Below the pieces are notes generated by a model. That model saw only the letters and a program-made list of their open reading frames with translations. It had not been told where the DNA came from and searched no databases. From Eledone cirrhosa (taxonomy: Eukaryota), in assembly GCA_964016885.1 (NCBI GenBank), contig OZ024759.1:18848001-18912000 (forward strand): 64,000 bases of DNA, in the 5' to 3' direction. Below are positions 335-39,988 of this stretch, piece after piece (positions within the stretch are counted from its first letter, which is position 1; each line of letters starts with the position of its first letter). Made by a program: the position numbers and the translations under genes.

Positions 335-335
<1 letters not shown>

Positions 336-695
336 AGAAGTTATATTTAATTTGTTGGGATACAACAAGCAAATATTTTTATAACTGATATAAAGCACTC
401 AACAAATTTTTGGAGTAAAAATACAATATATTAACAAATGGAAACTATATTTATAAAACCATATTTATTTCATTATACATATTTCAAGGACACCAAAGCA
501 AATTACGGGACTATCCGGGAGCTTCCAACAGACATGGTCGCATTCTTTAAGGGTATGTCAATATTCGTTTATAAAACTGATCTATATTATATTTTATCTG
601 ATGAAAGCGCACCATAATTTGCTTTGGTGTCCTTGAAATATGTATAAAGAAATAAATATGGTTTTATAAATATAGTTTCCATTTGTTAATATATA
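335..695 (+). mobile_element. TA-embedded Penelope-like/retrozyme-like terminal fragment (family A) with inverted partial copy
   Basis: 79-bp inverted arms at 427-505 and 615-693; HHR motif inside; second copy of the sense part at ~22241-22382; flanked by (TA)n. Confidence 0.65.
590..654 (+). ncRNA. Type I hammerhead ribozyme motif (family A)
   Basis: TATTTTAT-CTGATGA(598-604)-AAGCGCACCA..TGGTGTCCTT-GAAA(635-638)-TATGTA-TA-AAGAAATA; one mismatch in stem I. Confidence 0.7.
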
Positions 696-726: not shown

Positions 727-794
727 ATTATTCCATTTACCAGTGGTTTCTTAAAAGCAAAAGATTTTGTTTTCAATCCTCAGAATGAAAAAAT
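727..794 (-). ncRNA. Type I hammerhead ribozyme motif (family B, minus-strand copy)
   Basis: Reverse complement of 861-928 with one stem II substitution; core intact. Confidence 0.75.
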
Positions 795-860
795 CCTGGT
801 CTGTTTATTGAATTTGGATTTAAAATTTTTTTTAAATCGAAATTCAATAAACAGACCAGG

Positions 861-928
861 ATTTTTTCATTCTGAGGATTGAAAGCAAAATCTTTTGCTT
901 TTAAGAAACCACTGGTAAATGGAATAAT
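861..928 (+). ncRNA. Type I hammerhead ribozyme motif (family B)
   Basis: TTTCATT-CTGAGGA(872-878)-TTGAAAGCAAAA/TC/TTTTGCTTTTAA-GAAA(905-908)-CCA C TGG-TA^AATGGAA; all three stems pair. Confidence 0.85.
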
Positions 929-22223: not shown

Positions 22224-22278
22224 CCAGGTTGTCTTTATGCGGGTATGTCAATATTTATAAAACAAAAAAACAAATTTG

Positions 22279-22344
22279 TATTTTATCTGATGAAAGCGCA
22301 CCAAAATTTGCCTTGGTTGCCCTTGAAATATATATAATAAAATA
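22279..22344 (+). ncRNA. Type I hammerhead ribozyme motif (family A, best copy)
   Basis: TATTTTAT-CTGATGA(22287-22293)-AAG C GCA CCAA..TTGG T TGC C CTT-GAAA-TATATA-TA^ATAAAATA; perfect 8-bp stem I. Confidence 0.85.
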
Positions 22345-22440
22345 ATTATGGTTTTATAAATATAGTTTCCATTTATTAGTATATATATATGTGTGTGAGT
22401 ATATACATATGCATATATGTATATGTATATATATATATGT

Positions 22441-22886
22441 GTTTTCACGGTATTTTTGACTAAAGGAATTGTAGCCTGATAACGGGGTTTAGAACCCTCA
22501 GATAAATGGAAAAAGATGTGTATTGACGTACATGGGAGTCGAACCCACATCTTTGGTTATCGCGACCATTGTGCTACCATTACACCAACACATTACCCAT
22601 CCCCTTCTATTCAAATTAGAAGCTACATTCTTAGCGAGTTTAAATGGCAAGTAAGTATGTTTTGAAACAGTGAGCAGGTTTGAAATTAGAAAATAGAATA
22701 GCTTTCACGGTATTTTTGACTAAAGGAATTTTAGCCTGATAAAGGGGTTTAGAACCCTCAGATAAATGGAAAAAGATGTGTATTGACGTACATTTTATCA
22801 GGCTAAAATTCCTTTAGTCAAAAATGCCGTGAAAGCTATTCTATTTTCTAATTTCAAACCTGCTCACTGTTTCAAAACATACTTAA
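22441..22886 (-). mobile_element. TA-embedded element with 260-bp tandem unit, terminal inversion and internal tRNA-like cassette
   Basis: Direct repeat 22443-22533 / 22703-22793; 22793-22885 is the reverse complement of ~22652-22743. Confidence 0.75.
22524..22596 (-). pseudogene. tRNA-derived sequence (A and B boxes; weak acceptor stem)
   Basis: TGGTGTAATGGTAGCAC..TGGT..ACCA..GTGGGTTCGACTCCCAT: D arm and T arm pair. Confidence 0.65.
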
Positions 22887-38838: not shown

Positions 38839-39044
38839 CAACTTATCTAACTATCTATCTATCTCTTTCTATATATATATATATATAACGAAGGAAGTGT
38901 AGCAAGGAACCAGGTGGACCATAACGCACCAGAGTACTCGATACTTAGGGTAGTAGAGTGGGTAATAGGAAATTAACTACTGGGTTAGTTCAGATCTAGC
39001 TGTCGAAACGGCCAGAGCTCAGCCGTCGGGGTCCTGACTCATTT

Positions 39045-39082
<38 letters not shown>

Positions 39083-39279
39083 AAAAAGTATGACCCCGAC
39101 GGCAGAGCTCAAGCCATTTCGACGGCTGTTTCTGGACTCTGAGTCCATAAATAGCCGTCGAAACGGCTTGAGCTCTGCCGGCGGGGTCATACTTTTTCCT
39201 ATTACCTACTCTACTACCCTAAGTATTAAGTACTCTGATGCGTTATGGTCCATCTGGTTCCTTACCATATTTCCATTGT

Positions 39280-39335
<56 letters not shown>

Positions 39336-39374
39336 TATAAATATTAATAAAATAGATGTTCTTTTGATCAATTA

Positions 39375-39429
39375 CATTTTATTATACATATTTCGGATGT
39401 ACAACAGTACGTCCTCATCAGACAAAATA
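39375..39429 (-). ncRNA. Type I hammerhead ribozyme motif (family E)
   Basis: TATTTTGT-CTGATGA-GGACGTAC TGTT GTACATCC-GAAA-TATGTA-TA^ATAAAATG on the minus strand. Confidence 0.88.
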
Positions 39430-39514
39430 TGATACATGACATACCCTGAGATGTTAAATGGTTAAGATTTAATCAAAGTAGTGATTAGACATAATCATTG
39501 AATATCGTTTAACA

Positions 39515-39988
<474 letters not shown>

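What the first reader, a model, noticed from the sequence alone, without database searches (positions are those of the whole stretch)
39375..39429. Compact canonical HHR sharing stems I and III with family A but with a different stem II
This 55-nt motif has CUGAUGAG..CGAAA. Stem I and III (TATTTTGT / TATGTA-TA-ATAAAATG) nearly match family A, while stem II and the flanks look unrelated. It is natural evidence of structural conservation and the best candidate for a first assay.
Basis: partly seen in the sequence, partly recalled or inferred. Interest (0 to 1): 0.75.

Follow-up and report, generated by a model that had tools for sequence, protein, structure and literature searches.

The report
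Hydra-clade Penelope hammerhead, truncated copy
This motif is one of over a thousand identical copies of a hammerhead-shaped RNA at the end of a known kind of jumping gene; it likely cuts RNA only as a pair or with protein help, and this truncated copy is predicted to fold worse than its relatives, so it is ordinary and a poor first assay candidate.

Summary
The motif is real (minus strand, 39429-39375): full hammerhead core, AU-rich stem I, 7-pair stem II with one C·A mismatch, palindromic stem III, AUA triplet, predicted cut 39383/39382. It is not a rare compact ribozyme. The genome holds 1,094 exact copies of the 55-mer and 27,815 matches to a pattern shared with family A (control 0). Longer copies run contiguously into an RT plus C-terminal GIY-YIG ORF with the Hydra-clade signatures (DKT, CxCx5C, CxxC/CxH, no CCHH, (TA)n targets); the hammerhead sits in both pseudo-LTRs, 212-215 nt before the ATG. 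The window copy is a 5'-truncated solo pLTR with an inverted tail remnant. Copies end +56 or +160 nt past the cut, none at it (0 of 35), so the reverse-transcribed template was uncut or rejoined. A 3-nt deletion makes this copy misfold in silico; the majority variant folds as a double hammerhead. The scan noted this mismatch family before on other DNA of this genome. New member of a known kind; cleavage untested.

The parts
39375..39429 (-). Type I hammerhead motif, Penelope-type (short palindromic stem III)
   Evidence: Sequence; descriptor scan and shuffles; 1,094 exact copies in G000
39415..39421 (-). Catalytic core strand CUGAUGA (C3-A9)
39395..39414 (-). Stem II: 7 pairs, 4-nt loop, unpaired C39411 opposite A39398 (position 10.4/11.4)
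   Evidence: position unpaired in 66 of 66 distinct stem II sequences (C·C 44, C·A 17, U·C 4, C·U 1); covariation
39391..39394 (-). GAAA core strand (G12-A15.1)
39383..39391 (-). Self-complementary stem III segment (8 pairs with a second copy, two of them G·U) and AUA cleavage triplet; predicted cut between 39383 and 39382
   Evidence: pairing; cut site inferred from hammerhead numbering, not tested
39422..39430 (-). Stem I 5' arm; lacks 3 nt present in most family members, shortening stem I from about 12 to 9 pairs
39374..39382 (-). Stem I 3' arm
39437..39446 (-). Conserved upstream GGGTATGTCA motif shared with family A; role unknown
   Evidence: 95 of 124 distinct copies
39327..39487 (-). 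5'-truncated pseudo-LTR fragment of the Hydra-clade element, ending at the +56 site
   Evidence: 95.7% identical over 164 nt to the pLTR of full-length copy L149; end site
39488..39519 (+). Inverted remnant of the element's tail, ending at the +160 site (second arm of a two-armed insertion)
   Evidence: reverse complement of the tail seen in L009, L012, L019, L021, L086
39280..39330 (.). (TA)n target, one side
39519..39571 (.). (TA)n target, other side

Best explanation
The motif is the hammerhead of the pseudo-LTR of a Hydra-clade Penelope-like retrotransposon, left here as a truncated, likely inert copy in a (TA)n tract; in full-length elements it would likely cut after AUA only as a double hammerhead or with help from the element's protein. 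SHOWN: full-length copies read pLTR(HHR) - 212-215 nt - ATG, RT, linker, GIY-YIG - about 1.3 kb 3' UTR - pLTR(HHR), with 3.3-4.3 kb between hammerheads; copies insert in (TA)n and end at +56 or +160 nt past the predicted cut, two-armed insertions having one end of each kind; the window copy has exactly this anatomy. INFERRED: (1) a read-through transcript of the partial tandem brings two hammerheads together and the palindromic stem III segments pair across copies to make two active cores; (2) cleavage would trim the 5' end of the ORF RNA or release a unit that can be circularised; (3) the RT starts internally at +56 and +160 on RNA that spans the cut site, hence uncut or rejoined RNA, after the endonuclease nicks (TA)n; early termination gives solo pLTRs such as this one, which vastly outnumber full elements; (4) the invariant stem II mismatch is under selection, for a tertiary or protein contact or to damp cleavage.
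For: Linkage to RT/EN: 87-93% identical blocks of 2.4-3.4 kb from ORF to hammerhead among L061, L062, L063, L065, L067; in 14 of the 25 loci found with the ORF's 5' part a hammerhead-pLTR match lies directly upstream in the same orientation; four loci with two same-strand hammerheads around ORF pieces, spacing 4047, 4282, 3794, 3313 nt. Hydra signatures read in those translations against section 11 of PMC8557442; EN part scores 0.95-0.96 to GIY-YIG clusters in the Atlas, Pfam GIY-YIG E=0.006, below cut-off. End sites: of 35 copies picked by sequence upstream of the cut, 21 end at +55 to +64, 14 at +155/+160, 0 at the cut; same two modes in 75 copies. This matches internal RT initiation at two sites and use of unprocessed RNA shown for an anole PLE (PMC11167929, parts 1-2 read). 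Dimer: monomer stem III costs 2.8 kcal/mol; 8 cross-copy pairs possible; unconstrained cofolding of the majority variant gives the double hammerhead, -36.0 vs -33.2 for two monomers. PLE hammerheads cleave weakly and as dimers (PMC4209133, parts 1-2 read).
Against: No cleavage or expression data. No intact ORF among the copies examined (all carry stops or frameshifts). Pfam finds no RT family for this ORF and no solved structure matches, so clade assignment rests on motifs, not on a tree. The N-terminal motif reads RWR, not RWK. The tail is about 104 nt, not the 30-40 bp described. Two of five covariation measures do not exceed shuffles (pairs with double change 5 vs 5.0, 365/500; pair types 13 vs 14.2, 481/500), and the rows come from only a few deep lineages. 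Two hammerheads 4 kb apart may rarely meet. No copy ends at the cut, so the genome shows no footprint of cleavage. Samples of loci are best BLAST hits or the first listed places, not random draws.
Confidence: 0.85

Rival explanations
1. Same origin, but the motif is effectively non-catalytic in vivo: it is kept as a folded recognition element for the element's protein, and cleavage is negligible or dispensable.
For: 0 of 35 copies end at the cut; invariant stem II mismatch and AU-only stems I and III weaken the fold; in PMC11167929 core mutants did not affect insertion and no RNA-seq reads began or ended at the cut.
Against: The catalytic core is kept across families: CUGAUGA 111, CUGAGGA 3, CUGAAGA 3 of 117 (N7 is the free position, though the search pattern fixes the other letters), and stem III varies only between two self-complementary forms; the same paper shows protein-assisted cleavage that depends on C3-G8.
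Confidence: 0.3
2. The short unit is its own non-autonomous family (retrozyme- or SINE-like) that is transcribed, cut and copied independently of full-length elements.
For: Solo pLTRs far outnumber full elements; the 3-nt-deleted variant is common among short copies (23 perfect 64-nt matches among the 40 scored) and rare in ORF- or UTR-linked copies (1 of 35); retrozymes are proposed to derive from pLTRs (10.64898/2026.07.22.740005, part 1 read).
Against: No head-to-tail arrays of this unit were seen in the loci fetched; 5' ends are heterogeneous; in L009, L025 and L028 one arm of a single insertion has the 3 nt and the other lacks them, which points to recurrent slippage, not a lineage; the enrichment is built into the query.
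Confidence: 0.12
3. A compact, monomer-active canonical hammerhead.
For: Complete core; 2-3 pair stem III is possible; some invertebrate type I hammerheads with short stem III cleave well as monomers (PMC7229834, passages read).
Against: Monomer stem III is unfavourable; no loop 1/loop 2 tertiary motif of canonical type I was recognised; Rfam models miss it; this copy's predicted fold lacks stems I and II.
Confidence: 0.08
4. Chance motif or a C/D box snoRNA-like sequence (UGAUGA box).
For: Rfam lists two C/D snoRNA models at E=5 and 5.3.
Against: Scores 13-16 bits against cut-offs of 48-50; 0 of 200 shuffles give a motif; fixed position in a retrotransposon and stem II covariation.
Confidence: 0.01

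Closest known systems
Hydra clade of C-terminal EN+ Penelope-like elements and their hammerheads (Craig et al. 2021, PMC8557442; abstract passages, section 11 and part 2 of the supplement with the Hydra sheet and File S2 read), including Hydra-1_Obim from an octopus
   Same: RT plus C-terminal GIY-YIG, DKT, CxCx5C linker, CxxC and CxH around the conserved E and N, no CCHH, (TA)n targets, pLTR hammerhead with a 3-4 pair palindromic stem III and 1-2 nt loop, inverted 5'-truncated arm, tail on one end only.
   Different: Longer unit (3.8-4.3 kb vs under 3 kb) with a 1.3 kb 3' UTR; RWR for RWK; tail about 104 nt; hammerhead sequence unlike the listed Hydra-1_oBim motif; an internal stem II C·C/C·A mismatch that I did not see in the Hydra rows of File S2 (read by eye); tens of thousands of motifs.
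Minimal and palindromic-helix-III hammerheads of metazoan PLEs (Cervera and de la Pena 2014, PMC4209133; parts 1-2 of 4 read)
   Same: Type I topology in pLTRs, long helix II (7-8 bp), palindromic helix III, mostly solitary copies from truncated elements, opposite-strand pairs 100-700 bp apart, many families per genome with compensatory changes.
   Different: [quoted passage not shown]
Poseidon PLE of the green anole, PAc (Frangieh et al. 2024, PMC11167929; parts 1-2 of 4 read)
   Same: Two internal RT start sites downstream of the hammerhead that define the tail; AT-rich targets; template spans the cleavage site.
   Different: Different PLE clade; in PAc the hammerhead overlaps the start codon, here the cut lies 212-215 nt upstream of it; start sites here are AT-rich with microhomology to (TA)n.
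Metazoan non-LTR retrozymes (PMC7229834, passages read; bioRxiv 10.64898/2026.07.22.740005, part 1 of 5 read)
   Same: Small non-coding type I hammerhead repeats related to pLTRs; dimer dependence in some.
   Different: Retrozymes are head-to-tail arrays; this unit occurs singly or as inverted arms and is a direct fragment of a coding element.

Membership tests
Hammerhead ribozyme, type I | Core CUGANGA ... GAAA ... UH around three helices, ends in stem I | tested here: met
Hammerhead ribozyme, type I | Helix II supported by compensatory change | tested here: met
   28 cells vs 12.2+/-2.5, 0/500; 94.6% paired vs 35-59% when slid; two other measures not above shuffles; few independent lineages
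Hammerhead ribozyme, type I | Helices I and III supported by compensatory change | tested here: inconclusive
   helix III never varies (and is fixed by the search pattern), helix I varies on one side only
Hammerhead ribozyme, type I | Site-specific self-cleavage | not testable with these tools
   needs in vitro assay
Rfam hammerhead families | Score at or above gathering threshold | tested here: not met
   no hammerhead model listed even at E<=10
Penelope-like element (C-terminal EN+) | Single ORF with RT then GIY-YIG, flanked by pLTRs carrying the hammerhead | tested here: met
   every ORF copy examined is broken by stops or frameshifts
Penelope-like element (C-terminal EN+) | Inverted 5'-truncated arm and tail on one end only | tested here: met
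   window copy has a +56 end and an inverted +160 end
Hydra clade | DKG changed to DKT | tested here: met
   DKTNNLY in L065, L067, L151
Hydra clade | CxCx5C linker | tested here: met
   CNCRNKTDC in L061, L064, L149, L150
Hydra clade | CCHH absent; CxxC and CxH on either side of conserved E and N | tested here: met
   one Cys only after the VYK strand; CALC before E, CLH after N, read by eye
Hydra clade | N-terminal RWK motif | tested here: inconclusive
   RWR in this family and in family A: conservative variant; alignment to published Hydra proteins not done
Hydra clade | Insertion into (TA)n | tested here: met
Hydra clade | Length generally under 3 kb | tested here: not met
   hammerhead-to-hammerhead 3.3-4.3 kb; described as typical, not diagnostic
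Hydra clade | RT phylogeny groups with Hydra | not tested
   reference Hydra proteins were not available as usable sequences
Non-LTR retrozyme | Head-to-tail tandem units each with a hammerhead | tested here: not met
   single or inverted copies in the loci fetched; no array at the window locus
Non-LTR retrozyme | Abundant small linear and circular RNA | not testable with these tools
   no run on record as RNA was listed

The most novel reading that the evidence does not exclude
These pLTRs form a gated RNA module: a deliberately weakened hammerhead (invariant stem II C·C/C·A mismatch, AU-only palindromic stem III) closed by a long-range helix between the conserved upstream GGGUAUGUCA motif and a tail hairpin lying between the two RT start sites, so that protein binding or dimerisation switches the RNA between cleavage and reverse transcription. 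The helix appears in the minimum-energy fold of the majority variant and shows matching changes in several families, but a cognate-versus-swapped test was not significant.
Probability: 0.12. Interest if true: 0.6.

Novelty: new member of a known kind. Interest (0 to 1): 0.22.

Why it matters
The single motif matters little: it is one of more than a thousand identical retrotransposon remnants. The family is useful as a natural mutagenesis set for an open question, namely what hammerheads do in Penelope-like elements: about 28,000 motifs in one genome keep the core and an unexplained stem II mismatch while copies consistently extend past the cut site. It also gives a practical correction: assay the majority variant as a tandem dimer, with and without the element's protein, not this copy.

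Tried and rejected
Rfam: no hammerhead model; miRNA and snoRNA hits are (TA)n or box-C look-alikes far below cut-off. Pfam on the RT pieces and PDB sequence search: nothing informative. RT fragment joined to a pLTR in L012: first taken as the parent, rejected, because it occurs once and is not the ORF linked in the other loci; likewise the Poseidon-type ORF beside L043/L046 and the other Hydra-type ORF in L039 are neighbours, not the parent. Long-range helix between the upstream motif and the tail: 10 contiguous pairs in this family (shuffle fractions 0.01-0.06 for the five rows with the best-matching tail variant, 0.23-0.42 for four other rows of this and the long-loop family), but cognate vs swapped pairing over 22 representatives p=0.13 and over 14 A-like ones p=0.17, with the motif mis-picked in several rows; kept as a lead only. 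Test for copies that begin at the cut: the DNA search with the 60 nt downstream of it returned nothing (AT-rich words skipped), so 5' ends at the cut were not assessed. Sequencing runs: no RNA holder listed (the query was an ORF stretch of L086); three contig sets of unrecorded type were laid and give no information on expression or ends. Lunse, Weinberg and Breaker 2017 (PLE hammerhead variants cleaving as dimers) was not held; known here only through the review PMC6765202 (passages), and it may already list these variants. Paper searches surfaced no description of this family; PMC13282606 (passages) has no mention of hammerheads. bioRxiv supplements were not seen.

Full report
Observation. 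On the minus strand the window reads a complete type I hammerhead from 39429 to 39375: stem I 5' arm, CUGAUGA, a stem II of seven pairs with a 4-nt loop and one C·A mismatch, GAAA, an 8-nt self-complementary stem III segment, the triplet AUA and the stem I 3' arm. A strict descriptor finds 4 motifs in the window and none in 200 locally shuffled windows. Rfam lists no hammerhead family, at gathering score or at E up to 10.

It is a dispersed repeat. A 181-nt query gave 48 matches from 40 scored of 429 candidates in the 3.0 Gb own genome. The 55-mer occurs exactly 1,094 times (559 + 535; control 0). A looser pattern shared with family A occurs 27,815 times (control 0). Most copies are 150-270 nt long and flanked by (TA)n on both sides. 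The genome looks like that of a cephalopod-type animal; this is my inference from composition, the Atlas taxa and earlier notes, not a tested result.

The parent element. Walking upstream from longer copies reached, about 1.3 kb before the hammerhead, a GIY-YIG-type endonuclease preceded by an RT; blocks of 2.4-3.4 kb from ORF to hammerhead are 87-93% identical among five independent loci. Searching with the ORF's 5' part, 14 of 25 loci show the hammerhead pLTR directly upstream in the same orientation. Four loci carry two same-strand hammerheads around the ORF pieces, 4047, 4282, 3794 and 3313 nt apart, with the first cut site 212-215 nt before the ATG. The protein has DKT, a CxCx5C linker, CxxC before the conserved E, CxH after the conserved N and no CCHH, and RWR near the N-terminus: the features given for the Hydra clade of Penelope-like elements in section 11 of PMC8557442, whose supplement lists Hydra families, one from an octopus, nearly all in (TA)n and with hammerheads. 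The EN part scores 0.95-0.96 against GIY-YIG clusters in the Atlas; Pfam gives only a sub-threshold GIY-YIG hit and nothing for the RT. All ORF copies examined are broken. No tree was built, so the clade call rests on motifs. Family A is a sister family: one of its hammerheads (L154) precedes a homologous ORF start, 58-65% identical in the aligned pieces.

The window copy. Positions 39487-39327 are 95.7% identical to the pLTR of full-length copy L149. Positions 39488-39519 are an inverted piece of the element's tail. No ORF piece of the element lies in the window. It is therefore a two-armed, heavily truncated insertion in (TA)n, the arrangement described for PLEs (PMC8557442, passages).

Stem II is homologous, not unrelated. 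Over 66 distinct stem II sequences from the loci held, positions 10.1-10.3 pair in 61, 64 and 61, positions 10.5-10.7 in 59, 63 and 57, and position 10.4/11.4 in none (C·C 44, C·A 17, U·C 4, C·U 1). Pairs switch between G-C and A-U across families. On a 24-row alignment 28 cells change on both sides against 12.2 in shuffles (0/500), and 94.6% of cells pair against 35-59% for slid structures; the counts of pairs with a double change and of pair types do not exceed shuffles (365/500, 481/500), stem III never varies and stem I varies on one side only. The rows descend from a few lineages, so the number of independent events is small. A family with the same stem II base and a loop 12 nt longer, and intermediates, are in the list, which suggests that the 'compact' stem arose by loop deletion. 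The flanks are homologous too: an upstream GGGTATGTCA-type motif in 95 of 124 distinct copies and alignable tails with a conserved hairpin after the first end site.

How it likely works. As a monomer stem III costs energy (-6.1 vs -8.9 kcal/mol open), but its 8 nt pair fully with a second copy. For the majority variant, unconstrained two-strand folding returns the double hammerhead (-36.0 vs -33.2 for two monomers). Published PLE hammerheads cleave weakly, as dimers (PMC4209133), or only with the element's protein (PMC11167929). Among 35 hammerhead copies in loci chosen only by sequence upstream of the cut, 21 end at +55 to +64, 14 at +155/+160 and none at the cut; two-armed insertions carry one end of each kind (same modes in 75 copies). 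The RT therefore copied RNA that spans the cut site, uncut or rejoined, starting internally at two sites, as shown in vitro for the anole element. Cleavage, dimerisation and expression are inferred or untested.

The proposed assay. The window copy lacks 3 nt of the stem I 5' arm present in 31 of 35 ORF- or UTR-linked copies (1 of 35 has the deletion). In three two-armed loci one arm has the 3 nt and the other lacks them, so the deletion probably recurs by slippage. These are secondary-structure predictions without tertiary contacts or magnesium.

Novelty. Hammerheads in Hydra-clade pLTRs are published, including in an octopus. This family and its invariant mismatch did not surface in my searches nor in the Hydra rows of File S2 (read by eye), but the 2017 paper on PLE hammerhead variants could not be read. 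A long-range helix linking the upstream motif to the tail is present in one minimum-energy fold and suggested by matching changes in some families, but failed a permutation test (p=0.13 and 0.17). Verdict: a new member of a known kind, interest 0.22.

Noticed in passing
window 39411 and 39398; family-wide: Stem II position 10.4/11.4 is unpaired in 66 of 66 distinct stems (C·C, C·A, U·C, C·U) while its neighbours covary; function unexplained.
   Followed up: partly
window 39446-39437 (-); L086 tail about +117 to +127 from the cut: The conserved upstream GGGTATGTCA motif can form 10 pairs with a tail site between the two end sites; permutation test across families not significant.
   Followed up: partly
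L086, L098, L109, L129 and others, about +60 to +95 and +105 to +135 from the cut: Two hairpins are conserved in the tails of all these families, one right after the +56 end site and one before the +160 site; candidate RT positioning signals.
   Followed up: partly
window 747-908 (cores at 783 on - and 872 on +): Inverted pair of a third hammerhead family (CUGAGGA core, ACCA-C-UGGU stem III) resembling the stem III listed for Hydra-1_oBim.
   Followed up: no
window 335-690 and 22235-22380: Family A copies: the first is a two-armed insertion with a tail on the inverted arm; family A is a sister Hydra-type family with at least 1,168 first-look candidates.
   Followed up: partly
window 38886-39278: Adjacent unrelated two-armed, (TA)n-interrupted repeat with GC-rich hairpins, also present in L009, L018, L020, L023, L027; probably another PLE end. 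Its GAAAC lies upstream of a CUGAUG-like word, so it may relate to the scrambled-hammerhead families in earlier notes; not tested.
   Followed up: no
L012:1369-864 (-): A pLTR of this family is joined directly to an RT fragment of a different PLE family, suggesting template switching or nested insertion.
   Followed up: partly
L067:3050-5030 and L068:2616-5120: Two loci share a 4-kb block in which this element abuts a Poseidon-type PLE tail to tail (91% identical); duplication or a shared target.
   Followed up: no
window 22524-22594 (-): tRNA-like sequence (Rfam tRNA, 36 bits), possibly a SINE head.
   Followed up: no
L091, L148, L055: Further hammerhead families with CUGAAGA core and the same stem III but different stem I and II.
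   Followed up: no
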